From assembly GCA_964460485.1 (NCBI GenBank), contig CAYWRY010000001.1, positions 21,761-85,760 of the forward strand: a stretch of DNA of 64,000 nucleotides. The letters run 5' to 3'. Position numbers and translations under genes: made by a program. Source of the DNA: an uncultured Spirochaetales bacterium (GTDB taxonomy: Bacteria > Myxococcota_A > UBA9160 > UBA6930). Position 1 is the first letter of the stretch. The number at the start of each line of letters is the position of its first letter. Under the pieces are notes generated by a model. That model ran no database searches and was not told where the DNA came from. It was given only the letters and a program-made list of their open reading frames with translations. Positions 2,334 to 42,867 of the stretch are shown one piece after another.

Positions 2334-2349
2334 TGCAAGCGTAGTGCCG
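2334..2349 (-). promoter_or_regulatory. sigma-54 (-24/-12) promoter candidate for the CBS-DksA operon
   Basis: Minus strand reads CGGCACTACGCTTGCA (GGCAC-N5-TTGCA, GG to GC spacing exact). There are 36 nt between the GC and the start codon at 2298, and that stretch contains the GGAGGA RBS. Confidence 0.7.
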
Positions 2350-2453
2350 CACGCGGCTCCTTCCGCACACGTTGCGTCCGGACTCGTCCCGGCGGGTCTG
2401 GGTCGCAGCGACCCACCCCGGGCGCGCCGCGGCATGGGCGCGTCGGGGTTCGG

Positions 2454-2469
2454 TGGCATCCTGCGTGCA
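2454..2469 (+). promoter_or_regulatory. sigma-54 promoter candidate for the K+ channel gene
   Basis: TGGCATCCTGCGTGCA with correct GG-N10-GC spacing. Only 16 nt lie between the GC and the ATG at 2485, so the predicted leader is very short. Divergent from the 2334..2349 site. Confidence 0.6.
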
Positions 2470-2484
2470 CGAGGTGCCGCCCAC

Positions 2485-3492
2485 ATGACGACGACCCCGG
2501 CGCAGCGCATCGCCTTCGCAGCCGCCGCGCTCGCGTTGATCGCGGCGTTCGGAACGGCGGGCTACGTGCTGCTCGAGGGGTGGCCGGTCCTCGACGCGCT
2601 CTACATGACGGTGACCACGATGACGACCGTGGGCTACCGCGAGGTCCATCCGCTGAGCCGCGCGGGTCTGGTCTTCACGATGGTGCTGATCGTCGTCGGG
2701 GTGGGCGGAGCCCTCTACCTGCTCACGCAGGTGGCGGAGCTCATCCTGGACCGCCGCCTGCGCGCGGGCCTGCGAAGGAGAGTCATGGAGCGCTCGATCG
2801 GAAGGCTGTCGGGGCACATCGTGGTGTGCGGGTACGGACGCTTCGGCCGCGTCGTGGCCGACGAGCTGCGCCGCGCCGGGGAGCCGGTCGTGGTCGTGGA
2901 CCTCTCGACCGCGCTCGAAGACGAGCTGGCGACGACAGGCCTGCCGTTCGTGATCGGCACGGCGGCGTCCGACGAGACCCTCGAGCGCGCCGGGGTCGCG
3001 CGCGCTCGAGCGATCGTGGTGGCGACCTCCTCGGACGCGGACAACGTCTTCATCACGCTCGCTGCGCGCGAGCTGAATCCCGGGATCCAGATCTACGCGC
3101 GGGGTGAGAGCGACGCCGCTGCCCGGCGCCTCGAGCGCGCGGGCGCATGCTCGGTGACCTCCCCCTTCCGCATCGGCGGCCAGCGCGTGGCGGCCTCGAT
3201 CCTGCGACCTTCCGTGGTCGATTTCCTCGAGATCGGGCGTCCCCGGCAAGGCGGCGAGGTGGACCTCGAGGAGGTGCGCGTCGCGGCGGGGTCCGCCCTC
3301 GTCGGGCGCGCAGTTCGCGATCTGGAAGCCGAGGCAAGCGGCGTGCGGGTCGTGGCCGTCAAGCGCGCCGGCGAGTCGATGTTGCTGGCGCCGGTCGCCG
3401 AAACGACCATCGGCGCCGGCGACCACGTCGTCGTGATCGGGTCGCGGGCGCCGCTGCTCAAGCTCGCGGAGTCTGCTGCGACCGGCCGCTGA
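2485..3492 (+). CDS. two-TM K+-channel-like protein with RCK (TrkA-N/TrkA-C) domains
   Basis: C-terminal 335 aa of ORF 1588..3492. Contains a pore helix and filter MTVTTMTTVGYRE, a Rossmann motif VVCGYGRFG and a TrkA-C-like tail. The filter is non-canonical: GYRE where GYGD is expected. Confidence 0.85.
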   Translation: MTTTPAQRIAFAAAALALIAAFGTAGYVLLEGWPVLDALYMTVTTMTTVGYREVHPLSRAGLVFTMVLIVVGVGGALYLLTQVAELILDRRLRAGLRRRVMERSIGRLSGHIVVCGYGRFGRVVADELRRAGEPVVVVDLSTALEDELATTGLPFVIGTAASDETLERAGVARARAIVVATSSDADNVFITLAARELNPGIQIYARGESDAAARRLERAGACSVTSPFRIGGQRVAASILRPSVVDFLEIGRPRQGGEVDLEEVRVAAGSALVGRAVRDLEAEASGVRVVAVKRAGESMLLAPVAETTIGAGDHVVVIGSRAPLLKLAESAATGR

Positions 3493-3580
3493 TTGGGGCA
3501 TCCGGAGACGGCTCGGCTCCCCGACGGGTCCATCTGCCCCGCCGCGCGGTGCCGGCTGATGCGAGGCCGCGCCTCGGCGC

Positions 3581-3596
3581 GGGCACGCCCTGTGCT
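3581..3596 (+). promoter_or_regulatory. sigma-54 promoter candidate for usp-mgtE
   Basis: GGGCACGCCCTGTGCT (GGCACG-N4-GTGC). There are 27 nt to the ATG at 3623, with GGAGGTG in between. Nearly identical to the 42852..42867 site. Confidence 0.6.
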
Positions 3597-3622
3597 CCGT
3601 TCGACCGGGCGGAGGTGACGTC

Positions 3623-4507
3623 ATGCGTGCCCCCCGCAAGATCGTGGTGGCGACGGACTTCTCCGCCTGCGCAGAGCGCGCGCTCTCGGTGGCGCTCGCG
3701 ATCGGCGCCCACGGCAAGGCCGAGATCCATCTCGTGCACGCGCTCGAGGTGCCCGCGGTGGCCTACACGCCCTACGCGACGGCGCTCCCCGACGACCTGC
3801 TGGCCGCCGCGCGCGAGTCGGCGCAGCGGCGCCTCGCCGGCGCGGAAGCGGGCGTCCGCGCGAGCGGCCTCCCGGTTTCGTCGAGCCTCGCGAGCGTGCC
3901 CGCCGGGTCGGCGATCGCGAGCACGGCCAAGCAGATCGGCGCGGATCTGGTGGTGGTCGGATCGCGTGGGCACACGGGGCTCAAGCGGCTCGCGCTGGGC
4001 AGCGTCGCCGAGCACACGGTGAAGGAGTCGCCAGTTTCAGTGCTGACCGTGCGCGGCGAGGGCCACGCCGAGACGCCGAGAGTGATCGTCGTCGGCGTCG
4101 ACTTCTCGGAGGGCTCCGAGCGCGCGGTGGCCCTCGCCGCGGACTGGGCGCGCAGCTTCGGCGCGCAGCTCCAGCTGGTGAACGGTCTCGCTCTGACGAT
4201 GCCGTTCCTCGCGCCCTACGAGGTGACGGTTCCCGACGCGCTGATCGACGAGAGCTACGCCAATGCGAACAAGCGGCTCGCGGCGATCGCCGAGACGCTG
4301 CGCGACCTCGACGTGCACGCGAGCGTGGTGAGCGCCGCGCCCCACGACGCGCTCGACACGGTCGCCGCGCGCGTGAAGGCGGACCTGATCGTGACCGGCT
4401 CGCGCGGGCTGCGCGGGCTCCGGCACGCGCTGCTGGGCAGCGTGGCCGAGCGCACGCTGCGCCACGCGCCGTGCAGCGTGCTCACCGTGAAGAGCGCCGT
4501 CGCGTAG
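3623..4507 (+). CDS. tandem universal stress protein (two UspA domains)
   Basis: Full track ORF, 294 aa. Both halves have USP hallmarks (KIVVATDFS...VVGSRGHTGLKRLALGSVAEHTV and VIVVGVDFS...VTGSRGLRGLRHALLGSVAERTL). Paralog of 40242..41126. Confidence 0.9.
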   Translation: MRAPRKIVVATDFSACAERALSVALAIGAHGKAEIHLVHALEVPAVAYTPYATALPDDLLAAARESAQRRLAGAEAGVRASGLPVSSSLASVPAGSAIASTAKQIGADLVVVGSRGHTGLKRLALGSVAEHTVKESPVSVLTVRGEGHAETPRVIVVGVDFSEGSERAVALAADWARSFGAQLQLVNGLALTMPFLAPYEVTVPDALIDESYANANKRLAAIAETLRDLDVHASVVSAAPHDALDTVAARVKADLIVTGSRGLRGLRHALLGSVAERTLRHAPCSVLTVKSAVA

Positions 4508-4521
4508 CGCAGGCGCGCGGG

Positions 4522-5520
4522 GTGGAGGTGGAGGCGCAAGCTGCCGCGCCGCGCGAGGGCGCGCTGGTGCTGTTCGAGACGGCCGCGCAGCACGCCACGC
4601 GGCGGGTACCGATCGCGCGCCCGGAGGAAGCCGCCGGCGTGCTGCGCGCCTCGCTCCTGGGACGGCGCTTCGACAGCGCCGCCCACGTGGTGGTGTGCGA
4701 CGCGAACGGACGCTTCCTCGGCCTGCTGCGCACCGAGGACCTGCTGTCGGCGCCCACACACGCGCCGGTGGGCGGGCTGATGGACGCCGCTGCGCCCGTC
4801 GTGGCGCCGGGCGTGGACCAGGAGGTCGCCGCCGTTCGCGCCGCGCAGCGCGGCGAATCGGCGCTCAGCGTCGTCGATGGCGACGGACGCTTCGTGGGGC
4901 TGATTCCGCCGGACCGACTGATCGCGGTCCTGCTCGCCGAGCACGAAGAGGATCTTTCGCACCACGGCGGCTTCCTGGTGCGCGCCGACGCCCTGCGCAC
5001 GAGCGAGGAGCCCGTGCGCATGCGCTTCCGCCATCGCCTGCCATGGCTTCTGCTCGGCCTCGCCTGTGCCCTCGCCGCGGCCGATCTCGTCGCCGGCTTC
5101 GCGACGACGCTCGAGCGGCGCGTCGCGCTCGCGTTCTTCCTGCCCGGCATCGTCTATCTCGCAGACGCCGTCGGCACGCAGACGGAGACGCTGGTCGTGC
5201 GGGCGCTGTCGCTGGGCGTCTCCCTGCGGCGCATGGCCGCGCGCGAGCTGCTGACCGGCTGCGCGATCGGCGTGGCGCTTGCGGCGCTGGCGTTTCCCCT
5301 GCTGTGGCTGCGCTGGCGGGAGGCGGACCTCGCAGCAGCGGTGTCGCTCGCGATGCTCGCCGCGTGCTCCACGGCGACCGTCGCAGCGATGGCGCTGCCG
5401 TGGCTGCTCCAGCGCTCTGGCTTCGACCCCGCCCTCGGCAGCGGCCCGCTCGCGACCGTGCTCCAGGACCTGATCTCGATCCTGCTGTTCTTCGGGATCG
5501 CGGGCGCGATCGCGCCGTGA
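4522..5520 (+). CDS. mgtE: MgtE-family Mg2+ transporter (CBS pair plus MgtE membrane domain, no long N-domain)
   Basis: ORF 4471..5520. The GTG at 4522 was chosen because it lies just after the usp stop, so the start is uncertain. Contains CBS-like repeats, then FFLPGIVYLADAVGTQTETLVVRAL and 5 hydrophobic segments. Confidence 0.8.
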   Translation: MEVEAQAAAPREGALVLFETAAQHATRRVPIARPEEAAGVLRASLLGRRFDSAAHVVVCDANGRFLGLLRTEDLLSAPTHAPVGGLMDAAAPVVAPGVDQEVAAVRAAQRGESALSVVDGDGRFVGLIPPDRLIAVLLAEHEEDLSHHGGFLVRADALRTSEEPVRMRFRHRLPWLLLGLACALAAADLVAGFATTLERRVALAFFLPGIVYLADAVGTQTETLVVRALSLGVSLRRMAARELLTGCAIGVALAALAFPLLWLRWREADLAAAVSLAMLAACSTATVAAMALPWLLQRSGFDPALGSGPLATVLQDLISILLFFGIAGAIAP

Positions 5521-5542
5521 GGCGCCGGGAGCGGCGCTGGGC

Positions 5543-6382
5543 TCAGTGCGGCTGCGACGGCGGGGGCGCGCCGCGGCGGCCCGGCAGGTACTCGACGCCC
5601 GGCTGGCGCCGCACGGGCTGCGGATAGAGGGCCATCAGCTGAAGGACCTCTGCCGGCATCTCGGTGGAGACGCTGAGGCCGAGCTTGCGCGCCTCGTCCA
5701 CGGTGACGGGGTAGTCGTGCGTCCAGCGGCCCTCGGACAGATCGCTCGCGAGCGTGTCGCGCACGTGCTCGGGGAGCCGGTCCGCGGTGATGTCCTGAAT
5801 CGTCTGGCGGAGCTGTTTCAGCGCCATCTCGCTCTGGTCGGCGAGGATCAGGGTCTCGTCGTCGACCTCGGCGATCGGTTTGCGCTCGACGGCGCGCAGG
5901 ATCGAGGCCGCCGGCGCGCCGCCGACCTGCGGATCCGCCGGGCCGAGCACCGCGTGCTCGCTCATCACGATCTCGTCGGCGGCGAGCGCGATCAGCGTGC
6001 CGCCCGACATCGCGTAGTGCGGCACGAACACGGTCACCTTGCCGGGCCGCCGCGCCAGCGCGCGCGCGATCTGCGTCGAGGCCAGCGCGAGGCCGCCGGG
6101 CGTGTGCAGGACGAGATCGATGGGCAGCGCGGGATCGGTGAGATGGATCGCGCGCAGGATCTGCTCCGAGTCGTCCACGTCGATGTACCGGAAGACCGGA
6201 ATGCCGAGGAAGCTCATCGTCTCCTGGCGGTGGACGAGCGAAATGACGCGCGAGCCGCGCGCCTGCTCGATGCGGCCGATCAGGCGCGCGCGCATCGCCT
6301 CGAGCAGGCGTTGCCGGATCATCGGCTGCACCGCGAGCGCCAGGAAAACCAGCCAGATCCACTCGCTCACGCGGCTCTCCAT
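5543..6382 (-). CDS. SDH-family Clp-fold serine protease (periplasmic/membrane-anchored, PF01972-like)
   Basis: C-terminal 279 aa of ORF 5543..6772, starting MESRVSEWIWLVFLALAV (N-terminal TM). Contains LVLHTPGGLALAS and HYAMSGGTLIALAADEIVM, typical of this family from memory. Confidence 0.75.
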   Translation of the reverse strand: MESRVSEWIWLVFLALAVQPMIRQRLLEAMRARLIGRIEQARGSRVISLVHRQETMSFLGIPVFRYIDVDDSEQILRAIHLTDPALPIDLVLHTPGGLALASTQIARALARRPGKVTVFVPHYAMSGGTLIALAADEIVMSEHAVLGPADPQVGGAPAASILRAVERKPIAEVDDETLILADQSEMALKQLRQTIQDITADRLPEHVRDTLASDLSEGRWTHDYPVTVDEARKLGLSVSTEMPAEVLQLMALYPQPVRRQPGVEYLPGRRGAPPPSQPH

Positions 6383-6414
6383 CGCACCGAACCGAGCGTC
6401 GCAGGGCACCAGAT

Positions 6415-6430
6415 AGCAAGCCGCATACCG
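6415..6430 (-). promoter_or_regulatory. sigma-54 promoter candidate for the protease gene
   Basis: Minus strand reads CGGTATGCGGCTTGCT. The spacing is exact and the -12 TTGCT is perfect, but the -24 is GGTAT. There are 33 nt to the start at 6382. Almost identical to the acs site at 22541..22556. Confidence 0.5.
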
Positions 6431-6562
6431 CGCGCGGGCCGCCGGCGCCGCAAGATCGCACAGAAGCCGGGGCCTCGCGCCTCGCATCGCGCCGCGTTGA
6501 GGCACAGGTCCGCAGCCCGCACGGGCCGCGGCAGCCATCGTGTCCGGAGCCAGTGCCGCGCG

Positions 6563-6578
6563 CGGCATGCGCGTTGCA
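6563..6578 (+). promoter_or_regulatory. sigma-54 promoter candidate for the hsp20-CxxCH-groEL-hpf operon
   Basis: CGGCATGCGCGTTGCA (GGCAT-N5-TTGCA). There are 37 nt to the ATG at 6615, with AGGAGG at 6602-6607. Confidence 0.7.
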
Positions 6579-6614
6579 CAGCTTCTCGACGCCACCTTCA
6601 CAGGAGGAATGACG

Positions 6615-7076
6615 ATGGCGGAGAAAGAGAAGCGGGCGATCGCCCGCTGGAACCCGTTCGAGGATCTGGGCTGGTGGTTCCCGAGTCTCTCGCGCACGAG
6701 CGAGGGCGACCTGCTCGAAGACTTCTGGGGCCGTCGCGGCCCCGGGCAGTTTTCGCCGGCGACCGACATCACCGAGGACGACGGCCACTACGTCGTGAGC
6801 GCCGAGCTGCCGGGCATGAAACGCAGCGACATCAGCGTCGACGTCCACGACGGCGTGCTCACGATCCGCGGCGAGAAGAAGAGTGAACGCGAGGAGAAGA
6901 GCGAGAAGCGCCGCTACGTGGAGCGCAGCTTCGGCGCGTTCAGCCGCGCGTTCACCCTGCCGAGCGACGCCGACGAGAGCAAGGTCGAGGCGACCTTCAA
7001 GGATGGCGTCCTCACCGTCACGCTTGCGAAGTCCGAGGCCCGCAAACCTCGCGTCATCGACGTGAAGGCGTCGTGA
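6615..7076 (+). CDS. Hsp20/alpha-crystallin small heat-shock protein
   Basis: ORF 6540..7076. The ATG at 6615 sits 7 nt after AGGAGG. Alpha-crystallin core: DITEDDGHYVVSAELPGMKRSDISVDVHDGVLTIRGEKK...FSRAFTLPSDADESKVEATFKDGVLTVTL. Paralog at 42906..43361. Confidence 0.9.
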   Translation: MAEKEKRAIARWNPFEDLGWWFPSLSRTSEGDLLEDFWGRRGPGQFSPATDITEDDGHYVVSAELPGMKRSDISVDVHDGVLTIRGEKKSEREEKSEKRRYVERSFGAFSRAFTLPSDADESKVEATFKDGVLTVTLAKSEARKPRVIDVKAS

Positions 7077-8266
7077 TGCGATACGCAGCGGGAGTCGCGC
7101 TGGCGACTGGGCTCTCGTTGCTCTCGTGGGCCGCGCGCGCGGAAGCTCCGTCCGATCCGGATGCCGCCGCGCGCGCGGCCATGCAGCGCGTCTACGCGGC
7201 GATGACCGTGCTGTTGCCGGCCTCGGCGAAGGACGGCGGCTTCTCGGATCCCGCGCAGCGCGAGCAGCTGCGCGGCGCGTTCGAGACGCTGCGGGGGGCG
7301 GCCGTCGACCTGCGCGCCCACGGCACGAGCCGCGACGCGAGCTTCGGCCTGCACGCGAGCAACCTCGCCGACGACGCGCTGAACGCCAGCAGCGCCTTCG
7401 CCCTCGGCGACGAGGAGGAGGCGCGCTTCGCCTTCACGTTGCTGACCCAGCGCTGTACCGACTGCCACTCGCGGCTTCCCGACGTACAGGACTCGCCGCT
7501 CGCCGCGCGGCTCGTGCAGCTTCCGGAGGTGAAGGCGCTCGCTCCGCTCGAGCGCGCGCGCGTCGACGTCGCGCTGCGGCGCTTCGACGAGGCGCTCGCC
7601 ACCTGGGAGCAGGCATTTTCCGAGCCGGCGATCCCGCCCGCGGAGCATGAGCTGGCGGGCACGCTGGCCGACTATCTGACGATCGCGCTGCGCGTGAAGG
7701 CCGACGCGCAGCGCCCGCAGGCGGTGCTGCGCAAGTTGGCGAATCGTCCGGACGCGCCGGGCTATCTGCGCAACCGGTTGGTGGCGTGGGCGGTCTCGCT
7801 CGCCCGCGTCGGAGCGGAGCTCGCCCAGTCGACGCCTTCCATCCAGCACGCCCGCGAGTGGGCGATGATGGCGCGCAACCTGTCGGACCTGCCGACCGCC
7901 CGCGACGGGTTGGTCTACGACCTGGCGGCGTCGAGCCTCTTGCTGCGCTGGATCGACGCGCGCGAGAAGGGCAGTCGGGCGCCGCAAGACCTCGAGCTGG
8001 CGACCGCGTACTACGAGCTGGCGGTGATCGAAGACCGCACGGCGTTCTCGATCTGGGCGCCGCGCACGGACGTGTACATGGAGGCGGCGGTGCGCGCCGC
8101 GCCCTCGGGCCCGCTCGCGCGCCGTGCCTACGCGCGGGTCGAGGAGCAGCTCATGACCGAGCTGGGCGCGACCAGCCCCGACGGCTTGCCCGAGCCCGAA
8201 CGCGCGCGCCTCGCGGCGCTGCGCGCGCTGGTCGAGGGCGCCCACGCCGGCGGCAAGGCGAAGTAG
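7073..8266 (+). CDS. secreted helical protein with a single CxxCH motif (function unknown)
   Basis: Full ORF, 397 aa. ATGA overlap with the hsp20 stop. Signal peptide [25 protein letters not shown] and a CTDCH motif. Alignable along its whole length to 30882..32117 (CAGCH). Confidence 0.75.
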
Positions 8267-8310
8267 CCGCCGCACGAAGCTCGGAAGCGAGCACCGGAGG
8301 AGAGTTCGCC

Positions 8311-9933: not shown

Positions 9934-9937
9934 CGCC

Positions 9938-11784: not shown

Positions 11785-11806
11785 GGCACCTCCCCGGGGT
11801 TTCTCC

Positions 11807-35267: not shown

Positions 35268-35299
35268 GCGCGACGCCGGCGGGTGCAGCGGGAGGTCGC

Positions 35300-36691: not shown

Positions 36692-36786
36692 GGACGCGGA
36701 GCGGCCGCGCTCGGTCAGCGCGCGCAGCTCACCGGCGGAGGCCCCGGGGCCGCACTGCTCGGCTCGCGCAGCGGCCGCCGCCGTGC

Positions 36787-37293
36787 TCACCGCCTCCACG
36801 TCACGCGCACGAGGTTTTCGCGCGACGAGGCCGGGACGCGCAGCGTGCCGCGGTGGGCGCGGCGGAGCGCAGCCCCGATCCCGCGCGCCAGCTTGGAGTC
36901 GGTGGTCGCGATCTCGAGGCCGTCGGCCGTCGCCTGGATCGACGCGATGCGCTTCAGCGGGTGCTCGGCGCGCTCGCGCTCTTCGACGTTGCGCGCCAGG
37001 TGCTCGAGCTCTTCGCGATGCTCGGCGACGTACGCACCATGCATCTCCACCACGCCCGCCGGATAGCCGTCCGCGATGCGCTTGCAGGCAGGGCACACCA
37101 CCGGCGCCGCGTCGGCCGGAGCCGCCCCCCAGGCCCAGCGCCCGTTCCGGTAGATCGCGCGGCACTCGCTGCACGCGCTCGGGTCGGGAAGCTTGCGCCG
37201 CAGCGCATAGGGGTCCGAGCGCAGGGGCTTCTTCTGCGCATCCTGGCGCGGCAGGGATCCGGCAGCGTGAGTCTTCGAGCGTTGGCGTCGCAT
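36787..37293 (-). CDS. small Cys-cluster protein (CxxC...CxxC), BCAM0308-like
   Basis: C-terminal 168 aa of ORF 36787..37452. GAGGAGGA lies upstream of the ATG at 37293. CSECRAIYRNGRWAW...VCPACKRIADGYPAGVVEM. The family name is from memory of an NCBI label and needs checking. Confidence 0.65.
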   Translation of the reverse strand: MRRQRSKTHAAGSLPRQDAQKKPLRSDPYALRRKLPDPSACSECRAIYRNGRWAWGAAPADAAPVVCPACKRIADGYPAGVVEMHGAYVAEHREELEHLARNVEERERAEHPLKRIASIQATADGLEIATTDSKLARGIGAALRRAHRGTLRVPASSRENLVRVTWRR

Positions 37294-37316
37294 GGGTCCT
37301 CCTCGGGCGGAGAGAA

Positions 37317-37332
37317 TGCACGGCCCGTACCG
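37317..37332 (-). promoter_or_regulatory. sigma-54 promoter candidate for the BCAM0308-like gene
   Basis: Minus strand reads CGGTACGGGCCGTGCA with exact spacing. There are 24 nt to the ATG at 37293. Confidence 0.45.
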
Positions 37333-37450
37333 CGGGCGCTGGGCGGGCCCCGCCCGGTGGTGCCGCCGCGCGGCGGGCGGCGTTCGGGCCCCTGCGCGGC
37401 GCCCCGCACGGTGTTTGATTGCCGCGGAGCGCCGGCCCATAGTTCGAGCC

Positions 37451-38695
37451 ATGAACTTCGATCGCGAGTCCCTCCTCGCGTTCTACGAGCTCAGCGACAC
37501 GGAGATCGCCCGCCTCGCCGAGCTGCGGCCGATGCTCGAGAAGCGTGCCGACAGCTTGGTCGCCGCCTTCTACCGGCACCTGCTGGGCTTCCCCGAGACG
37601 CGCAAGCTGCTGCGCGATCCGCGGGTCACCGAGCGGCTGCTGGGGGAGCAGAAGCGCTACCTGCTGAGCCTCGCCTCGCCCACGATCGACGACGCGTACC
37701 TGGAGCAGAGACGCCAGATCGGCGTGGCGCACGAGCGCATCGGGCTCGCGCCGACCTGGTACCTGGGCGCCTATTCGCTCTACGAGGCGCTGCTCGTCCC
37801 CATCTTGCTCGAGGAGTACTCATCGAACCTGGAGCGCGCCCGCGGGCTGCTCATGACCCTGCGGCGGCGGCTGCATCTCGACGCGGCGCTCGCGCTCGAG
37901 ACCTACGTGGACCGTCGCGAGCGGGATCTCGAGTACCTGAACCAGCAGCTTGCCGAGGCGAGCCGCAAGCTCGCGCGCGACCTCGAGAGCACCGGCGTCG
38001 AGCTGCGCTCGAGCCGCGCGCGGGCGCAGGCGGCCGAGCGGCTCGCCTCGATCGGCACCCTCGTCGCCGGCCTCGCCCACGAGATCGGCACGCCCATGGG
38101 CGTGATCCAGGGCCACGCCAAGCTGCTCGAGAACGCCGTGCAGGACGAGAGCGGGCGCTGGCGCCTGCGGACGATTCAGGCACAGATCTCGCGGATCGCG
38201 CGGATCATGGAGAGCCTGCTCAACATGGCGCGGCCCTCCGCGCGGCGTACCCGCGTCCTGGTTGCGCTGCCGGCGGTGCTCGACAACACGCTGGCTTTCC
38301 TGACGGAGCGGCTCACGCGGCGGCGCGTCGAGGTGGTGCGCGACTACGCCGAGACGCCGTCGATCCGCGCCGACCCCGAGGCGCTCCAGCAGATCTTCCT
38401 GAACCTGGTGATGAACGCGATCGACGCCATGCCAAGCGGCGGAGAGCTGCGCGTCTCGATCGCCCCGATCGAGGCCGGCGCGGAGGTGCGCATCGCGGAC
38501 AACGGGAGCGGCATGCCCCCCGAGGCGCGCGAGCGGATCTTCGACCCGTTCTTCACGACGAAGGAGGCCGGCCAGGGCCACGGGCTCGGCCTCGCGGTCG
38601 CCCAAGGCATCGCCCACGACCACGGCGGCGAAATCACCCTGGTCCGCTCCGGCCCGGGCGGCACCGAGTTTCGCGTCACGCTCGCGGCTGAGTGA
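37451..38695 (+). CDS. globin-coupled (protoglobin domain) sensor histidine kinase, cytoplasmic
   Basis: C-terminal 414 aa of ORF 37292..38695. The N-terminal sensor-globin pattern includes the proximal-His region RRQIGVAHERIGLAPTWYLGAY. This is followed by a coiled coil, H-box LAHEIGTP, N-box NLVMNAIDAM and G-boxes DNGSGM and GHGLGL. Confidence 0.85.
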   Translation: MNFDRESLLAFYELSDTEIARLAELRPMLEKRADSLVAAFYRHLLGFPETRKLLRDPRVTERLLGEQKRYLLSLASPTIDDAYLEQRRQIGVAHERIGLAPTWYLGAYSLYEALLVPILLEEYSSNLERARGLLMTLRRRLHLDAALALETYVDRRERDLEYLNQQLAEASRKLARDLESTGVELRSSRARAQAAERLASIGTLVAGLAHEIGTPMGVIQGHAKLLENAVQDESGRWRLRTIQAQISRIARIMESLLNMARPSARRTRVLVALPAVLDNTLAFLTERLTRRRVEVVRDYAETPSIRADPEALQQIFLNLVMNAIDAMPSGGELRVSIAPIEAGAEVRIADNGSGMPPEARERIFDPFFTTKEAGQGHGLGLAVAQGIAHDHGGEITLVRSGPGGTEFRVTLAAE

Positions 38696-38798
38696 GCGGG
38701 GGACCCGGGGCTGGGGCACGGCGTCGCCGCCCGCGGCGTGATGTGGTGCAGAATGCCTCGCAACGGGAGGTTCGAGGTGCCGCATCGGCTGGCGCCAT

Positions 38799-38814
38799 TG
38801 GCATGAAGCCTGCT
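38799..38814 (+). promoter_or_regulatory. sigma-54 promoter candidate for the activator gene itself
   Basis: TGGCATGAAGCCTGCT. There are 15 nt between the GC and the ATG at 38829, so the leader is predicted to be very short. Implies autoregulation. Confidence 0.6.
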
Positions 38815-38828
38815 CCAACTAGAACCGC

Positions 38829-40238
38829 ATGCGACACACGGCTCAGATCCTCATCGTCGACGATGACCGCGCCATGCGCGAAATGCTTGCCTCGCTGTTC
38901 AAGGAGCGCGGGCTCTGGGTGGAAGAGGCGAGCTCCGCTCGCGCTGCACTCGAGCTCGCGGCGGAGCGCGAGTTCGACGTGGTGCTCTCCGACATCCGCA
39001 TGCCCGGCCTCTCGGGCATCGAGCTGGTGGGACAGCTGCGCCGGCTGCGTCCCAACACGCCGGTCGTGCTGATGACGGCATTCGGCACGATCGACTCGGC
39101 GGTCGAGGCGATGCGCGCGGGCGCCTTCGACTACATCACCAAGCCCTTCGAGCCGGAAGCGGTGAGCTTCGCCGTGGATCGCGCCATCGAGCGCGCGGCC
39201 CTGGCGCGCGAGAACGAGACGCTGCGGCGCGCGGTGCAGACCACCGGCGAGCTGGGCGAGTTGATCGGCTCGAGCGCTGCGATGCGCGACATCATCGCGC
39301 TGATCCAGCGCGTGGGTCACAGCCGCGCGAGCGTGCTGATCACGGGCGAGAGCGGCACGGGAAAGGAGGTGATCGCGCGGACGCTGCACTTCCACGGCGC
39401 GCGTCGCGAGATGCCGTTCGTGCCGATCAACTGCACGGCGATTCCCGAGGGCCTGCTCGAGAGCGAGCTGTTCGGTCACGTGCGCGGCGCCTTCACCGGC
39501 GCGCACACCAACAAGCGCGGCCTGTTCGAGAAGGCCAATGGCGGGACGCTGTTCCTCGACGAGGTCGGCGACATGGGCCTCGCGCTCCAGGGCAAGCTGC
39601 TGCGCGTGCTCCAGGATCGCGAGATCCGGCCGGTGGGCGGTACCCAGACGATCAAGGTGGACGTGCGCATCATCGCGGCCACCAACAAGGACCTGCCCGC
39701 CGAGATCGCCGCCGGGCGTTTCCGCGAGGACCTGTTCTACCGGCTGAACGTCGTGCCCATCCACGTCCCGCCCCTGCGCGAGCGCACCGACGACATCCCG
39801 GCGCTGGTGGAGGCCTTCCTGCGGCGCCACGGCGAGGGGCGCAAGCGCTTCGTCTCCGCCGAGGCGATGGCCGTGCTGCGCGCGCAGCCGTGGCGCGGCA
39901 ACGCCCGCGAGCTGGAGAACACGATCGAGCGCGCGATCGCGCTGACGGACGTGGAGACGCTGGGCCCCGCCGACATCCCGCTGCCGGCGAGCACCGGGGG
40001 TCCGCCCGCGACAGGAGCCTCCGCAGGAGCGCCGGTGGATCTCGACACCCTGCTGCGCGCTGCGGCGGCGCGCGGCACGAGCCTGCGCGACCTCGACGAG
40101 AAGTACACGGCCATCGTGCTCGCCCACACGGGGGGCAACAAGGTGCGCGCGTCGCAGATCCTCGGCATCGACCGGAAGACGCTCTACCGTCGCGCCGAGC
40201 GCCGCGCCCGCGAAGAGGGCGCGAGCGACGAGGAGTGA
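38829..40238 (+). CDS. sigma-54-dependent response regulator (NtrC family: REC-AAA+-HTH)
   Basis: Full ORF, 469 aa. REC domain ILIVDDD...SDIRMPG, Walker A GESGTGKE, the sigma-54 contact loop GAFTGA, FLDEVG and a C-terminal Fis-type HTH NKVRASQILGIDRKTLYRR. Confidence 0.92.
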   Translation: MRHTAQILIVDDDRAMREMLASLFKERGLWVEEASSARAALELAAEREFDVVLSDIRMPGLSGIELVGQLRRLRPNTPVVLMTAFGTIDSAVEAMRAGAFDYITKPFEPEAVSFAVDRAIERAALARENETLRRAVQTTGELGELIGSSAAMRDIIALIQRVGHSRASVLITGESGTGKEVIARTLHFHGARREMPFVPINCTAIPEGLLESELFGHVRGAFTGAHTNKRGLFEKANGGTLFLDEVGDMGLALQGKLLRVLQDREIRPVGGTQTIKVDVRIIAATNKDLPAEIAAGRFREDLFYRLNVVPIHVPPLRERTDDIPALVEAFLRRHGEGRKRFVSAEAMAVLRAQPWRGNARELENTIERAIALTDVETLGPADIPLPASTGGPPATGASAGAPVDLDTLLRAAAARGTSLRDLDEKYTAIVLAHTGGNKVRASQILGIDRKTLYRRAERRAREEGASDEE

Positions 40239-40241
40239 CGC

Positions 40242-41126
40242 GTGAAGAGCCCCCGCAAGATCCTGGTGGCGACCGACTTCTCCGCCGGCGCCGAGCGCGC
40301 GTTGGACACGGCGCTCGCGCTCGCCGCTCCAGCGAAGGGCGAAGTGCACGTGGTGCACGCGCTCGAGATCCCGCTGCCGATGTTCGAGCCCTACGCGGTC
40401 GCGCTTCCGCCGGAGCTGATCGGCGCCGCCCGCAAGACGGCGCAAGAGAAGCTCGCCGCGGCCGGCGAGAAGGTGCGCGCGCGCGGTCTCACCGGCACGA
40501 CCTTCCTCGGCGAGGTGCCGGCTTCGATGTGCGTCGCCGAGCGCGCCAAGGCAATCGGCGCGGATCTGGCGGTGATCGGCACCCACGGCCACACCGGCTT
40601 CAAGCGCTTCCTGCTCGGCAGCGTCGCGGAGCGCACGGTGAAGGAATCTCCGGTCTCGGTGCTCACGGTGAAGGGCGAGGGGCGCGCCGAGGCGCCCAAG
40701 ACGATCGTGATCGGCGTCGACTTCTCGAAGCACTCCCAGGAAGCCGTGGAGCTGGCCGCGGACTGGGCGCGGGCGTTCGGCGCGACTCTCTACCTGGTGC
40801 ACGGCCTCGAGCTGCGCATGCCGTTCGTCACTCCGTACGAGGTATCGGTGCCGGACGCGCTCATCGACGCCGCCTACGCGGAGGGCAAGAAGCGCCTCCA
40901 GGAGCTGGCCGGGAAGCTCACGGGCGTGAACGTGCGCACGGAGCTCGCGAGCGCACCCGCCCACGCGGCCCTCGACGGCGTGGCAGAACGCGTCCGCGCG
41001 GACTTGATCGTGACCGGCTCGCGCGGCCTCGGCGGCATCAAGCATGCGGTGCTCGGCAGCGTCGCGGAGCGCACGCTGCGCCACGCGCCGTGCAGCGTGC
41101 TCACGGTGAAGTCGCACATCGGGTGA
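40242..41126 (+). CDS. tandem universal stress protein (paralog of 3623..4507)
   Basis: Full ORF, 294 aa. GTG is 4 nt after the activator stop. Roughly 60% identical by eye to 3623..4507 and the same length. Confidence 0.9.
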   Translation: MKSPRKILVATDFSAGAERALDTALALAAPAKGEVHVVHALEIPLPMFEPYAVALPPELIGAARKTAQEKLAAAGEKVRARGLTGTTFLGEVPASMCVAERAKAIGADLAVIGTHGHTGFKRFLLGSVAERTVKESPVSVLTVKGEGRAEAPKTIVIGVDFSKHSQEAVELAADWARAFGATLYLVHGLELRMPFVTPYEVSVPDALIDAAYAEGKKRLQELAGKLTGVNVRTELASAPAHAALDGVAERVRADLIVTGSRGLGGIKHAVLGSVAERTLRHAPCSVLTVKSHIG

Positions 41127-41215
41127 CGCGGCGCCGCTCGCGCGGCGGCGAGGCGAAGCATGGGGATCGGTGAGGCGCCGCGAATCCGGCTCGCCGCTCG
41201 CGCCGGCGCGCGCTG

Positions 41216-42808
41216 ATGAGTGCGCTGAGCCAAGTGGGATCGATGCTCGCGCTCGGCGTGGCGCTGCTGCTGTTCGGGATGTGGCTGCTGCGCGAGGGGA
41301 TGCGCGAGTTCGCCGGCGCGCGGCTCCAGCGCTGGCTCACGCGCGTGACCCAGAGCCCACTGCGCGGCGCGCTGGCCGGGGCGGCCGCCACGGCGGCGGT
41401 GCAGTCGTCGAGCGCGACGATCGTCACGGCGATCGGCTTCGCGAGCACGGGTCTACTCGAGTTCTCGCAGGCGCTCGGGATCGTCTTCGGCGCGAACGTC
41501 GGCACGACGCTGACCGGCTGGCTGGTGCTCGCCGTCGGGATCCGCTGGAAGCTCGTCTTCGCAGCGCCGCTGCTCGCCCTCGTGGGCGTCTGGCTGCATC
41601 TCTATGCCCAGCGCCGCCTCGCCAGCGCCGGCCGCGTGATCGGCGGACTCGCGCTCGCGCTGCTCGGCATCGAGGCGCTCGGCAGCGCCCTCTCCGGAGA
41701 CGCGGTGGCGAGCGCACTCGCGGCAGTTCCGGGCGACTCCCTCGGCTCCCGGCTCGCGCTGGTCGCCATCGGCACCGGGATCACGCTGGTCGCGCAGTCC
41801 TCCTCGGCGGGCGTGGCCGCGGCGCTCGCGGCCGTGCATGCGGGGGCGCTCGACCTCGGCCAGGCCGCCGCGGTGGTGATCGGCTTCGACCTCGGCACGA
41901 CGGGCAGCGCCGTGCTCGCCTCGCTGCGCGGCTCGCTCGCCGCGCGCCGCACCAGCTTCGCGCACGTGATCTTCAACGTGTTCACCGCGCTGGGCGCGCT
42001 GCTGCTGCTGCCCGCGCTTTCCGTGCTGCTCGCGGCCCTTGCGCGCAGCGGGCACGCGCTGTCCCCGGAGGTCGCGCTCGTGGCCTTCCACTCGACCTTC
42101 AACCTGGCCGGCGCGGCCGCGGCGATCCCGCTGGCGGGCCCGTTCGCCGCGCTCGTCGAGCGTCTCGTCCCCGAGCGGCGGCGCACGCTCACGCGCCGGC
42201 TCGACGCGCGGCTGCTGCGGGAGCCCGACGTCGCCCTCGACGCGGCGTCGGCGACGCTCGGCGAGATCGCGCTCCAGGCGTTCGCGCGGCTCGAGGGCAT
42301 GCTCGCCGGAACGCCGTGCGATCCCGGCGAGATCGAGCTGCTCGAGAGCGCGCTCGTGGAGACCCAGCAGTTCGTGGCCCGGATCCGGTGTGAGGCGAGC
42401 GAGGCGCAGGCGCTCGTCTCCGCGCTGCACGCCGTCGACGAGCTGCACCGCCTGCTCGATCGCATGCAGCAGGAGGGACGCGTCGCGCCCTTCGCCGAGG
42501 ACGCCGAGCTGGCGGGGCGTGCGCGCGCGCTTTCGGCTGCGCTGCCCCGGCCCCTGGAGGCGCGCGAGCGCGCCGAGGGCGGAGTGGAGCGCGCCGCCGC
42601 CGAGCTCGCCGCGGAGCGCAGCGCTCACCGCGAGCGCATCCTCGCGGCGGCCAGTCGCGGCGAGCTCACGCCCGCGGCGGCCCTCGACCGCATGGACAGC
42701 TGGCGCTGGCTGGAGCGTTGCGCTCACCACGCGTGGCGGATCGTCCACCACATTGGCCGAGTCGGCGCCTCGAGCGGCGCCGAGCGCGAGCCCGCAGAGC
42801 CCTCTTGA
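41216..42808 (+). CDS. Na/Pi cotransporter family protein with PhoU-like C-terminal region
   Basis: Full ORF, 530 aa. Repeated QSSSAT/QSSSAG motifs, GANVGTT/GFDLGTT and multiple TM segments. Confidence 0.85.
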   Translation: MSALSQVGSMLALGVALLLFGMWLLREGMREFAGARLQRWLTRVTQSPLRGALAGAAATAAVQSSSATIVTAIGFASTGLLEFSQALGIVFGANVGTTLTGWLVLAVGIRWKLVFAAPLLALVGVWLHLYAQRRLASAGRVIGGLALALLGIEALGSALSGDAVASALAAVPGDSLGSRLALVAIGTGITLVAQSSSAGVAAALAAVHAGALDLGQAAAVVIGFDLGTTGSAVLASLRGSLAARRTSFAHVIFNVFTALGALLLLPALSVLLAALARSGHALSPEVALVAFHSTFNLAGAAAAIPLAGPFAALVERLVPERRRTLTRRLDARLLREPDVALDAASATLGEIALQAFARLEGMLAGTPCDPGEIELLESALVETQQFVARIRCEASEAQALVSALHAVDELHRLLDRMQQEGRVAPFAEDAELAGRARALSAALPRPLEARERAEGGVERAAAELAAERSAHRERILAAASRGELTPAAALDRMDSWRWLERCAHHAWRIVHHIGRVGASSGAEREPAEPS

Positions 42809-42851
42809 GCCGCGCGTGGCGCGCGCCGGCTGCGCCCGCGAGCGCATCGCC

Positions 42852-42867
42852 GGGCACGCCTCGTGCA
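42852..42867 (+). promoter_or_regulatory. sigma-54 promoter candidate for the second hsp20
   Basis: GGGCACGCCTCGTGCA. There are 39 nt to the ATG at 42906, with GAGGAGG in between. Very similar to the usp site at 3581..3596. Confidence 0.6.

What the first reader, a model, noticed from the sequence alone, without database searches (positions are those of the whole stretch)
2334..42867. Nineteen sigma-54 (-24/-12) promoter matches sit directly upstream of nearly every transcription unit in the left 43 kb
Reading each intergenic region on both strands, I found 19 sites matching nGG-x-A-Y-N6-TGC-w. All have the exact GG-N10-GC spacing of sigma-54 promoters.

Sites by coordinate:
- 2334-: CGGCACTACGCTTGCA
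- 2454+: TGGCATCCTGCGTGCA
- 3581+: GGGCACGCCCTGTGCT
- 6415-: CGGTATGCGGCTTGCT
- 6563+: CGGCATGCGCGTTGCA
- 12947-: TGGAACGGGCCTTGCT
- 13106+: CGGCACGTCGCTTGCT
- 14840+: GGGCACGCGGGATGCA
- 22541-: CGGTACGCGGCTTGCT
- 24646-: CGGAACGAACCTTGCT
- 24724+: CGGCATGGCCGATGCA
- 30457-: CGGCACGACGATTGCC
- 30588+: CGGCACGAACGCTGCT
- 32149-: CGGCATGTTGCCTGCA
- 32174+: TGGCATCGCCCCTGCA
- 32518+: CGGCACGCTTCCTGCT
- 37317-: CGGTACGGGCCGTGCA
- 38799+: TGGCATGAAGCCTGCT
- 42852+: GGGCACGCCTCGTGCA

Each points toward a gene start 13-50 nt downstream of its GC. Together they cover about 19 of roughly 20 inferred transcription units in the island. The sensor kinase gene is the clear exception.

The same eye scan of every gene-upstream region from 43.4 to 64 kb found none.

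As a rough back-of-envelope estimate (about 36% G, 36% C, 14% A, 14% T), the invariant core has a probability near 1.6e-4 per position per strand. That predicts fewer than one chance hit in the short windows upstream of about 45 starts. This is an estimate, not a computed scan.
Basis: partly seen in the sequence, partly recalled or inferred. Interest (0 to 1): 0.88.

Follow-up and report, generated by a model that had tools for sequence, protein, structure and literature searches.

The report
Sigma-54 promoter cluster, oxygen-sensor stress island
A 43-kb block of stress and low-oxygen survival genes in an uncultured myxobacterium has a real sigma-54 promoter in front of almost every operon and carries its own haem-globin sensor kinase and sigma-54 activator; it is a larger and simpler relative of the oxygen-responsive NmpR regulon of Myxococcus xanthus.

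Summary
All 19 strings are at the stated coordinates. A weight matrix scores the 19 sites at 13.2-19.5 bits and everything else at 12.7 or less. All 19 lie outside coding sequence and point at the adjacent gene. None lies right of 43.4 kb.

In relatives with roughly 85% protein identity, 15 orthologous sites keep GG, A and TGC at 100%, while the flanks are at chance identity (about 31%).

The island (43 genes) encodes one NtrC-type activator with a GAFTGA loop, next to a protoglobin histidine kinase. The other genes include USPs, HSP20s, GroEL, a ribosome hibernation factor, CBS proteins, hemerythrin and a P-type ATPase.

The sigma-54 reading is supported. The best explanation is a single haem-sensor to activator to sigma-54 regulon for low-oxygen or stress survival.

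Not shown: rpoN itself, any enhancer (UAS) motif, the signal and its polarity, and transcription start sites.

Closest known systems are M. xanthus NmpRSTU (sigma-54), with the Burkholderia lxa locus and the mycobacterial DosR regulon as functional analogues. This is a new variant of a known kind, of moderate interest.

The parts
1..43361 (.). Regulon cluster of 43 genes. It continues left of the window for at least two more genes of the first operon.
   Evidence: Gene map; Pfam. GC is 73.9%, the same as the flank at 72.7%, so it is not a compositional island.
2334..2349 (-). Sigma-54 promoter for the operon CBS + DksA/TraR zinc-finger protein, 444-aa unknown, AA_kinase (then NuoF-like, left of the window)
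   Evidence: 18.1 bits. SD and ATG follow after 36 nt. Ortholog at L119 6241-.
2454..2469 (+). Sigma-54 promoter for the TrkA-type K+ channel gene (ATG 2485); leaderless-type spacing
   Evidence: 15.4 bits. ATG follows after 16 nt with no room for a leader. Ortholog at L119 6370+ with the same spacing.
3581..3596 (+). Sigma-54 promoter for Usp-MgtE
   Evidence: 13.2 bits; leave-one-out 8.9, the second weakest. Ortholog at L119 7487+ scores 14.8.
6415..6430 (-). Sigma-54 promoter for the SDH-protease/NfeD gene
   Evidence: 19.5 bits. Ortholog at L119 9345-.
6563..6578 (+). Sigma-54 promoter for HSP20, TPR-like unknown, GroEL, HPF (S30AE) and a Tll0287-like gene
   Evidence: 18.4 bits. SD and ATG follow after 31 nt. 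Ortholog at L119 9482+.
12947..12962 (-). Sigma-54 promoter for glutamate dehydrogenase and YbaK
   Evidence: 17.0 bits. Ortholog at L119 17700-; the unusual GGA at -24 is conserved.
13106..13121 (+). Sigma-54 promoter for the zeta-toxin/AAA_33 kinase-like gene
   Evidence: 19.2 bits. Ortholog at L119 17839+.
14840..14855 (+). Sigma-54 promoter for cyclopropane-fatty-acid synthase and an FAD protein
   Evidence: 14.1 bits. A strong SD and an in-frame ATG at 14905 follow. Ortholog at L119 19597+.
22541..22556 (-). Sigma-54 promoter for AMP-binding ligase, 2-oxoacid dehydrogenase E1a/E1b/E2 and a carrier protein
   Evidence: 18.8 bits. The start is GTG after 13 nt or after 43 nt. No ortholog was available for comparison.
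24646..24661 (-). Sigma-54 promoter for a 155-aa unknown, YkuD L,D-transpeptidase and M15 peptidase
   Evidence: 19.3 bits. SD and ATG follow after 33 nt.
24724..24739 (+). Sigma-54 promoter for phosphoribosyltransferase and malic enzyme
   Evidence: 15.8 bits. SD and ATG follow after 26 nt.
30457..30472 (-). Sigma-54 promoter for hemerythrin and a CBS protein (possibly also the P-type ATPase)
   Evidence: 14.2 bits; leave-one-out 8.6 because it ends TTGCC. Orthologs at L087 2982-, L090 4874- and L092 9150- all end TTGCG.
30588..30603 (+). Sigma-54 promoter for the DUF4404 gene; leaderless-type spacing
   Evidence: 16.9 bits. ATG follows after 13 nt. L087 has the identical 16-mer, and the same 12-nt gap is kept in L087 and L090.
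32149..32164 (-). Sigma-54 promoter for a 411-aa unknown; back-to-back with the next site
   Evidence: 18.1 bits. Ortholog at L087 4672-.
32174..32189 (+). Sigma-54 promoter for a small membrane protein (ATG 32204); leaderless-type spacing
   Evidence: 14.3 bits. It lies 9 bp from the divergent site. Ortholog at L087 4699+, where the gap is 11 bp.
32518..32533 (+). Sigma-54 promoter for an 87-aa protein, a PRPP-synthetase-like protein, an AMP/thymidine-phosphorylase-like protein and a beta-CASP nuclease
   Evidence: 17.2 bits. The GGCACGCTTCCTGCT core is identical in L087 (5024+) and L088 (20601+, kinase 63% identical).
37317..37332 (-). Sigma-54 promoter for an NMD3-like zinc-ribbon protein
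   Evidence: 15.3 bits. Orthologs at L087 9852- and L093 9936-.
37415..37443 (+). Candidate sigma-70-type promoter of the sensor kinase gene (TTGATT-17-CATAGT, 7 nt before the ATG)
   Evidence: Conserved as TTGACA-16-CATnAT-6..9-ATG in four relatives (alignment A6). It falls below the strict E. coli-type threshold. Inferred.
37451..38695 (+). Globin-coupled sensor histidine kinase (Protoglobin + HisKA + HATPase_c)
   Evidence: Pfam. The globin domain matches HemAT at E = 5.5e-16, with Tyr41 and His94 aligned to the HemAT sequence. The transmitter is ZraS/AtoS-like.
38744..38757 (+). Conserved block (TTGGTrCAnAnTGCC) about 45-60 nt upstream of the activator gene's -24 element; function unknown
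   Evidence: Alignments A2 and A4. It does not recur elsewhere in the window.
38799..38814 (+). Sigma-54 promoter for the activator gene and a Usp gene (autoregulation); leaderless-type spacing
   Evidence: 19.2 bits. The -24/-12 bases are invariant in six relatives across alignments A2 and A4, and the site and spacing recur in L121. The ATG always lies 12-17 nt after the 16-mer.
38829..40238 (+). NtrC-type enhancer-binding protein (REC + AAA+ Sigma54_activat + HTH_8)
   Evidence: GAFTGA loop, Walker A motif and receiver Asp54. Pfam. Best NCBIfam matches are AtoC, NtrC and ZraR, all below their equivalog cut-offs.
42852..42867 (+). Sigma-54 promoter for the second HSP20 gene (ATG 42906); right edge of the cluster
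   Evidence: 14.8 bits. SD and ATG follow after 39 nt. Ortholog at L087 15690+ scores 10.7.

Best explanation
The 19 elements are genuine sigma-54 (RpoN) -24/-12 promoters. Together they make a 43-gene cluster transcriptionally silent unless an enhancer-binding protein is active.

The most likely driver is the single NtrC-type activator encoded in the cluster. It would be phosphorylated by the adjacent haem-globin sensor kinase.

- The kinase gene is read from its own conserved sigma-70-like promoter, so the sensor is always present.
- The activator gene has a sigma-54 promoter of its own, which gives positive feedback.

When the haem signal changes, the phosphorylated activator would open the sigma-54 closed complexes. 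That would switch on chaperones, ribosome hibernation, USP/CBS energy-status proteins, hemerythrin, ion transport, envelope and lipid remodelling, and nucleotide salvage. I favour loss of O2 as the signal; NO, CO or redox change are alternatives.

Shown here: the promoter elements, their placement, their conservation, and the regulator pair.

Inferred: that this one activator serves all 19 promoters, the nature and polarity of the signal, the start sites, and that five transcripts are leaderless.
For: Motif statistics and placement:
- The pattern and weight-matrix scans show strong enrichment.
- The information profile matches TGGCACG-N4-TTGCW and nothing outside the 16-mer is conserved.
- All sites lie outside coding sequence and point at a start codon 13-50 nt after the -12 C.

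Phylogenetic footprint:
- For 15 orthologous pairs against L087 and L119, identity is 82% in the 16-mer and 100% at GG, A and TGC. It is 30-32% in the 30-nt flanks.
- The site upstream of the activator gene is invariant in relatives whose kinase is down to 57% identical.

Regulators:
- The activator has a GAFTGA loop, a Walker A motif, a receiver Asp and HTH_8.
- The kinase has a protoglobin domain with Tyr41 and His94 aligned to HemAT, and a ZraS/AtoS-like transmitter.
- The kinase-activator-Usp trio stays linked to USP, HSP20, CBS, hemerythrin, DUF4404, HPF, P-type ATPase and (in L121) cbb3 oxidase genes. Sigma-54 sites are present in L087, L088, L089, L119 and L121.

Precedent: M. xanthus NmpR, an NtrC-like regulator downstream of a protoglobin kinase, activates sigma-54 promoters of CBS, USP, P-type ATPase/cbb3 and hemerythrin genes under hypoxia (PMC11841059).
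Against: - No shared enhancer (UAS) motif was found upstream of the 19 promoters.
- The NmpR box is not enriched.
- Two divergent pairs leave only 9 bp and 62 bp between the promoters, which is little room for enhancers.
- rpoN is not in the available DNA.
- AfGcHK, the studied globin kinase, is switched on by O2, and M. xanthus needs an inverting hybrid kinase (NmpS) to obtain hypoxic induction. No inverter is present here. Either this kinase has the opposite polarity or the island is induced by O2.
- No expression data exist.
Confidence: 0.7

Rival explanations
1. The elements are sigma-54 promoters, but the island is not one regulon. Several enhancer-binding proteins encoded elsewhere in the genome each drive a subset. 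The local activator controls only its own operon and a few neighbours.
For: No common UAS was found. The conserved non-promoter blocks differ between intergenic regions. From background knowledge, Myxococcota carry dozens of NtrC-like activators. The TPR-like gene keeps a sigma-54 site in L120, where it sits away from any kinase-activator pair.
Against: Only one activator is encoded in 64 kb. Its linkage with the same target families persists across relatives whose kinase is down to 57% identical, and in the much more distant L121. Promoter density drops to zero at the edge of the cluster.
Confidence: 0.22
2. The motif is not a sigma-54 promoter. It is the operator of another transcription factor, or the promoter of an ECF-type sigma factor.
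For: No transcription start or sigma-54 dependence data exist, and rpoN has not been seen.
Against: The motif is asymmetric and strictly co-oriented with genes. The 10-nt GG-GC spacing is too short for a -35/-10 pair. The information profile is the sigma-54 consensus. A GAFTGA activator, which can act only with sigma-54, sits in the island. Start codons 13-16 nt after the GC in five cases fit a start site at +12.
Confidence: 0.04
3. The matches are chance or compositional matches in GC-rich DNA, or copies of a dispersed repeat.
For: A plain mismatch count against TGGCAC-N5-TTGC is not enriched.
Against: The pattern gives 19 matches against 2.5 expected. The matrix gives 19 against 1.75 at 13 bits or more. 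No site lies in 59 kb of coding DNA. The flanks are unrelated to each other, so the sites are not a repeat family. The core bases are conserved in orthologous positions.
Confidence: 0.01

Closest known systems
NmpRSTU oxygen-utilisation regulon of Myxococcus xanthus (McAllister et al. 2025, PMC11841059; Bretl et al. 2018, PMC6211767)
   Same: Both are in the phylum Myxococcota. Both have a protoglobin-domain sensor kinase upstream of an NtrC-like activator that acts at sigma-54 promoters, and the activator regulates its own gene. The targets include a CBS protein, a USP, a P-type ATPase and hemerythrin, plus cbb3 oxidase in the distant relative L121.
   Different: - There is no NmpS hybrid kinase or NmpT double receiver here, so this is a direct two-component pair. 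That removes the inverter that gives hypoxic induction in M. xanthus.
- The globin domain is closer to HemAT (E = 5.5e-16) than to the NmpU homologue AfGcHK (E = 4.2e-5).
- The GCGCA-N5-TGCGC NmpR box is not enriched.
- There are 19 promoters and 43 genes in one contiguous block, against 7 promoters and 23 genes scattered in M. xanthus.
- This island adds HPF, GroEL, HSP20, K+/Mg2+/Pi transport, envelope and lipid genes.
Burkholderia cenocepacia low-oxygen-activated (lxa) locus (Sass et al. 2013, PMC3721108)
   Same: It is one contiguous block of about 50 genes with a shared regulatory motif at 17 intergenic points. It encodes six USPs and an alpha-crystallin/HSP20, with transport, nucleotide and lipid metabolism genes. 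It is needed for anoxic persistence.
   Different: The lxa motif is an Fnr/Anr-type TGA-N6-TCA operator, not a sigma-54 promoter. It has no globin kinase or enhancer-binding protein. The phylum is different.
DosR/DevR dormancy regulon of Mycobacterium tuberculosis (background knowledge, plus PMC3390679 for the S30AE factor)
   Same: Haem-based sensor kinases switch on USPs, HSP20 (HspX), an S30AE ribosome-stabilising factor, a CBS protein, a P-type ATPase and phosphoribosyltransferases under hypoxia, NO or CO.
   Different: DosS and DosT use GAF-haem domains. DosR is a NarL-type regulator acting with the housekeeping sigma factor. Actinobacteria have no sigma-54.
Klebsiella nif cluster and flagellar clusters as dense sigma-54 promoter clusters (background knowledge)
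   Same: Nearly every operon of a contiguous cluster has a -24/-12 promoter served by one dedicated activator.
   Different: The function is different (nitrogen fixation or motility). Their UAS elements are well defined. Their activators are not controlled by a globin kinase.

Membership tests
Sigma-54 (RpoN) -24/-12 promoter | GG and GC doublets separated by exactly 10 nt | tested here: met
   19 of 19 sites.
Sigma-54 (RpoN) -24/-12 promoter | Extended consensus TGGCACG-N4-TTGCW | tested here: met
   The column profile is y-G-G-c-A-y-G-N4-t-T-G-C-w, with no information outside it. The first base is mostly C rather than T.
Sigma-54 (RpoN) -24/-12 promoter | Located upstream of and co-oriented with a gene, at a distance compatible with a start site about 12 nt after the GC | tested here: met
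   All 19 are outside coding sequence and co-oriented, with starts 13-50 nt after the -12 C.
Sigma-54 (RpoN) -24/-12 promoter | A bacterial enhancer-binding protein with an AAA+ GAFTGA loop is available | tested here: met
   Gene 38829-40238 encodes REC + Sigma54_activat + HTH_8, with GAFTGA present.
Sigma-54 (RpoN) -24/-12 promoter | The genome encodes rpoN | not testable with these tools
   The source genome is not retrievable. No RpoN-box peptide occurs in the window or the fetched loci. The lineage is Myxococcota, where rpoN is the rule; that is background knowledge.
Sigma-54 (RpoN) -24/-12 promoter | Enhancer (UAS) sites upstream of the promoter | tested here: inconclusive
   Dyad, k-mer and EM searches and window-versus-L119 or L087 footprints gave no shared motif.
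Sigma-54 (RpoN) -24/-12 promoter | Mapped start sites and dependence on sigma-54 and activator | not testable with these tools
   This requires experiments.
NmpRSTU system (M. xanthus) | Protoglobin sensor kinase orthologous to NmpU/AfGcHK | tested here: inconclusive
   A protoglobin domain is present, but it matches AfGcHK only at E = 4.2e-5 against HemAT at 5.5e-16. No NmpU sequence was available.
NmpRSTU system (M. xanthus) | Four-component relay with hybrid kinase NmpS and double-receiver NmpT | tested here: not met
   No other kinase or receiver gene was found. This covers the 64-kb window, apart from a few small ORFs that were not scanned, and the +/-10 kb around the pair in five relatives.
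NmpRSTU system (M. xanthus) | Paired GCGCA-N5-TGCGC NmpR boxes upstream of the sigma-54 sites | tested here: not met
   With up to 2 mismatches there are 355 matches against 340 expected. The exact GCA-N5-TGC core occurs 39 times, and only 3 of these are intergenic.
NmpRSTU system (M. xanthus) | NtrC-like output regulator that autoregulates and targets CBS, USP, P-type ATPase and hemerythrin genes | tested here: met
   for gene content; for the site upstream of the activator gene. Regulation itself is inferred.
DosR/DevR dormancy regulon | NarL-type DosR regulator with GAF-haem kinases | tested here: not met
   The regulator is an NtrC-type EBP and the sensor is a globin. The resemblance is in gene content only.
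Burkholderia lxa locus | Fnr/Anr-type TGA-N6-TCA motif at the intergenic points | not tested
   The intergenic signal found here is the sigma-54 element. The lxa motif was not searched for.

The most novel reading that the evidence does not exclude
In uncultured Myxococcota, a HemAT-like haem-globin kinase would directly phosphorylate one sigma-54 activator. That activator alone would switch on a 43-gene, 19-promoter survival programme: ribosome hibernation, chaperones, ion homeostasis, and envelope and nucleotide remodelling. This would be a sigma-54-wired counterpart of the mycobacterial DosR dormancy regulon. Several of its mRNAs, including the activator's own, would be made leaderless directly from sigma-54 promoters.
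Probability: 0.4. Interest if true: 0.6.

Novelty: new variant of a known kind. Interest (0 to 1): 0.45.

Why it matters
If the local kinase-activator pair drives all 19 promoters, this is a compact and nearly complete gas- or stress-responsive regulon in one stretch of DNA. Sensor, activator, promoters and targets are all present, and the lineage has no cultured representative.

It would show that the low-oxygen persistence gene set (USP, HSP20, HPF, CBS, hemerythrin, P-type ATPase) has been placed under three different regulatory systems: DosR, Fnr/Anr and sigma-54. It would also give a simpler two-component version of the Myxococcus Nmp relay in which to study signal polarity.

The conserved 13-16 nt distance between the -12 element and the ATG makes the idea of leaderless sigma-54 transcripts directly testable.

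The practical value is modest. The promoter type, the activator family and the general idea of oxygen-responsive sigma-54 control in myxobacteria are already described.

Tried and rejected
The source organism and its rpoN could therefore not be recovered that way. Taxonomy rests on source labels (Myxococcota or Deltaproteobacteria MAGs).
- Three contig look-ups failed: the AMP-binding ligase and the 444-aa protein, tried twice to extend the island leftwards. Only 1.7 kb left of the window was seen in the source genome itself (L005), plus the L119 ortholog.
- Searches for a shared enhancer found nothing convincing. These covered k-mer enrichment, exact dyads and an EM motif search (11-14 bits, noise level). 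The enriched words CCACCGGGCG and GGAGCCAG are not conserved in L087 or L119. Conserved blocks differ from region to region and do not recur.
- The M. xanthus NmpR box is not enriched.
- A mismatch-count scan with the textbook consensus was uninformative at 73.5% GC.
- Rfam and tRNA scans of the window found nothing.
- The strict E. coli-type sigma-70 scan found no promoter upstream of the kinase. The candidate rests on conservation instead.
- A search for the RpoN-box peptide in all fetched DNA was negative.
- Two near-matches, CGCCACGCGCCGTGCA at 4460 and 41079 (11.3 bits), were rejected. They lack the GG, and each lies in the 3'-terminal coding region of one of the two USP paralogues.

Full report

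The window is 73.5% G+C. All 19 16-mers are at the stated positions and strands.

I called genes from a codon log-odds model, since third-position GC is about 0.9 in real frames. I corrected the calls with gene calls on identical metagenome contigs. This gives 62 genes, 59.4 kb coding and 4.6 kb non-coding.

Scans of the whole window on both strands gave these results:
- GGHAYN6TGCW has 19 matches, against 2.51 +/- 1.77 in dinucleotide-preserving shuffles. The nineteenth reader site, 30457-, ends in C. The one extra match, 24432-, is inside a gene and scores below 9 bits.
- GGCAYGN5TGC has 12 matches against 2.65 expected.
- A weight matrix from the 19 sites scores them at 13.2-19.5 bits and everything else at 12.7 or less. 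Leave-one-out scores are 8.6-18.1.
- Markov simulations give 1.75 hits at 13 bits or more, against 19 real hits.
- A plain mismatch count against TGGCAC-N5-TTGC is not enriched. In this composition the information is in the A/T positions.

Aligned on the 16-mer, information is confined to yGGcAyG-N4-tTGCw. Nothing is conserved from -70 to +30 around it. The sites are therefore not copies of a repeat.

All 19 are outside coding sequence and point at the adjacent gene. They cover 19 of about 21 unit starts in the island against 0 of about 13 in the flank (Fisher p = 1e-7). The units without a site are the sensor kinase gene, the Na/Pi transporter gene, and possibly the P-type ATPase gene.

**2. 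What is in the island?**

- **Leftwards from 2334-:** a CBS + DksA/TraR zinc-finger protein, an unknown protein and an amino-acid kinase. Beyond the window edge the operon continues with a NuoF-like subunit and, in the L119 ortholog, a molybdopterin oxidoreductase.
- **2.4-17.2 kb:** a TrkA-type K+ channel; Usp-MgtE; an NfeD-type protease; then HSP20, a TPR-like unknown, GroEL, HPF (S30AE) and a Tll0287-like protein. These are followed by glutamate dehydrogenase and YbaK, a zeta-toxin/AAA_33 protein, and cyclopropane-fatty-acid synthase with an FAD protein.
- **17.3-29.4 kb:** an acyl-AMP ligase with 2-oxoacid dehydrogenase E1/E2 and a carrier protein; an unknown with a YkuD L,D-transpeptidase and an M15 peptidase; a phosphoribosyltransferase and malic enzyme; a P-type cation ATPase.
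- **29.5-37.3 kb:** hemerythrin and a CBS protein; DUF4404; several small or unknown proteins. One operon encodes a PRPP-synthetase-like protein, an AMP/thymidine-phosphorylase-like protein and a beta-CASP nuclease. An NMD3-like zinc-ribbon protein follows.
- **37.4-43.4 kb:** the globin kinase; the activator with a Usp; a Na/Pi cotransporter; a second HSP20.

To the right of 43.4 kb are ordinary metabolic genes: pyrD, ornithine carbamoyltransferase, enoyl-CoA hydratase, Lnt, an esterase, acyl-CoA dehydrogenase, GST and P450. GC content is the same on both sides. The same right flank is present in the relative L087. This is a regulon cluster, not a recently acquired island.

**3. The regulators**

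Gene 38829-40238 is a complete NtrC-type enhancer-binding protein. It has a receiver domain with Asp54, a Walker A motif, the GAFTGA loop that contacts sigma-54, and HTH_8. It is nearest to AtoC, NtrC and ZraR but falls below every equivalog cut-off.

Gene 37451-38695 has Protoglobin + HisKA + HATPase_c domains. Its sensor domain matches HemAT (E = 5.5e-16) and two other globin-coupled sensors much better than AfGcHK (E = 4.2e-5). Tyr41 and His94 align with the HemAT sequence. Its transmitter is ZraS/AtoS-like, which is the kind that partners sigma-54 activators.

No other kinase, receiver or activator gene was found among the window genes that were scanned.

**4. Conservation**

The kinase family is abundant in metagenomes. 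The only taxonomic labels are Myxococcota or Deltaproteobacteria MAGs.

I fetched relatives at several distances:
- L087 (kinase 83% identical) and L119 (TPR-like protein 86% identical), from the same sample; they cover the right and left parts of the island.
- L090, L092 and L093 (74% in the globin domain).
- L088 (63%).
- L089, which is the same locus as L094 (57%).
- L121, a distant relative on a 5.8-Mb contig.

Every window promoter with an available ortholog has a site at the same place. For 15 pairs, ungapped identity is 82% in the 16-mer, with GG, A and TGC at 100% and the spacer at 33-67%. Identity is 30-32% in the 30-nt flanks, which is chance level. Even the unusual GGT and GGA variants are kept. 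A sixteenth ortholog, upstream of HSP20 in L087, scores 10.7 bits.

The site upstream of the activator gene is invariant in six relatives across the two alignments of the kinase-activator spacer, while the rest of that spacer diverges.

[quoted passage not shown] It has six sites at 13 bits or more in 21 kb. In L120 the TPR-like gene sits alone and still has a site.

**5. Anatomy of the promoters**

Fourteen promoters are followed by a Shine-Dalgarno sequence and a start codon 24-50 nt after the -12 C.

Five have the ATG only 13-16 nt after it, with no Shine-Dalgarno sequence: 2454+, 30588+, 32174+, 38799+ and possibly 22541-. With the start site expected 12 nt after the C, these mRNAs would be leaderless or have leaders of 4 nt or less.

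The spacing is conserved:
- For the activator gene it is 12-17 nt after the 16-mer in all relatives examined, including L121.
- For DUF4404 it is exactly 12 nt in three genomes.

This is a sigma-70-type, leaderless arrangement. The window copy, TTGATT-17-CATAGT, falls below the strict scan threshold.

Six promoter pairs are divergent, with 9-143 bp between the 16-mers. The 9-bp back-to-back pair 32149-/32174+ is conserved in L087 (11 bp). An analogous pair exists in L121 (9 bp).

**6. Mechanism**

Best explanation (confidence 0.7): sigma-54 holoenzyme sits in closed complexes at the 19 promoters. The constitutively expressed haem kinase controls phosphorylation of the activator. The activator then opens the complexes and amplifies its own synthesis.

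The elements, their placement, their conservation and the regulator pair are shown. The one-activator claim and the signal are inferred.

The main gap is that I found no shared enhancer motif. The published NmpR box is not enriched.

A second uncertainty is polarity. AfGcHK is O2-activated, and M. xanthus inverts the signal through NmpS. No inverter is present here. Hypoxic induction, which the gene content and the cbb3 linkage in L121 suggest, would require a deoxy-active kinase.

The main rival (0.22) is control by several activators encoded elsewhere.

**7. Comparison with known systems and novelty**

The closest system is M. xanthus NmpRSTU (PMC11841059). It runs from a protoglobin kinase to an NtrC-like NmpR to sigma-54 promoters, with 7 promoters and 23 genes. 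The targets include a CBS protein, a USP, a P-type ATPase with cbb3 oxidase, and HemN with hemerythrin, and the system is induced by hypoxia.

The window differs in five ways:
- It has two components rather than four.
- Its globin is HemAT-like.
- It lacks the NmpR box.
- It has nearly three times as many promoters, all in one block.
- It has added hibernation, chaperone, ion-transport and envelope genes.

In layout it resembles the Burkholderia lxa locus, which has 50 genes and a shared Fnr/Anr-type motif at 17 intergenic points (PMC3721108). In content it resembles the DosR regulon.

A full-text search for 'globin-coupled' together with 'sigma-54' returned one unrelated paper. A search for leaderless sigma-54 transcripts in Myxococcus returned nothing relevant.

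My rating is a new variant of a known kind. The feature is real and coherent, and of moderate interest.

Noticed in passing
window 2454-2487, 30588-30618, 32174-32206, 38799-38831, possibly 22526-22556; also 37415-37453: Five sigma-54 promoters place the ATG 13-16 nt after the -12 C with no Shine-Dalgarno sequence, which implies leaderless or nearly leaderless mRNAs. The spacing is conserved in relatives. The kinase gene shows the same leaderless geometry behind a sigma-70-like promoter.
   Followed up: partly
window 32149-32189; L087 4672-4714; L121 9452-9492: Two divergent sigma-54 promoters lie back to back with only 9-11 bp between their -24 ends. The arrangement is conserved in L087, and an analogous pair serves different genes in the distant L121. 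There is no room for an enhancer between them, and two holoenzymes would probably clash.
   Followed up: partly
window 38744-38757: A conserved block, TTGGTrCAnAnTGCC, lies 45-60 nt upstream of the activator gene's -24 element in five relatives. It contains an NtrC-like TGGTGCA half-site but does not recur elsewhere in the window. It could be an autoregulatory site or a second promoter.
   Followed up: partly
window 30512-30525 and 32020-32034: GGGACGGTTCGCCC lies midway between the divergent hemerythrin and DUF4404 promoters and is conserved in L087 and L090. It resembles GGGGCGTTTCGTCC, about 140 bp upstream of the 32174+ promoter inside the neighbouring gene. Two copies are too few to call a UAS, and the motif is not enriched overall.
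   Followed up: partly
window 4460-4475 and 41079-41094: An identical 16-mer, CGCCACGCGCCGTGCA (11.3 bits, lacking the GG), lies in the 3'-terminal coding region of each of the two USP paralogues. One sits just upstream of the MgtE gene and the other upstream of the Na/Pi transporter gene. It is best explained by coding conservation between the paralogues, not as a promoter.
   Followed up: yes
window 2350-2375, 6536-6562, 22557-22580, 24662-24685: Four promoters share GGAGCC(A)G 5-9 nt upstream of the -24 element. It is not conserved in the L119 orthologs of two of them, so it is probably not functional.
   Followed up: yes
window 32865-36691: An operon encodes a PRPP-synthetase-like protein, a thymidine/AMP-phosphorylase-like protein (archaeal-type models score best) and a beta-CASP metallo-nuclease. 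It suggests nucleotide or RNA salvage as part of the response. The L119 relative adds an RNA 3'-phosphate cyclase (RtcA) gene to its island.
   Followed up: no
window 7181-8266, 30882-32117, 164-1498, 32575-32838: Four conserved proteins have no Pfam or NCBIfam family: a TPR-like protein of about 380 aa, and proteins of 411, 444 and 87 aa. They travel with the regulon. The 87-aa gene keeps an identical promoter core in relatives whose kinase is down to 63% identical.
   Followed up: partly
window 24432-24446 (-): This is the only pattern match inside a gene (GGAACCTGACGTGCA). It scores below 9 bits and is consistent with the 2.5 chance matches expected.
   Followed up: yes
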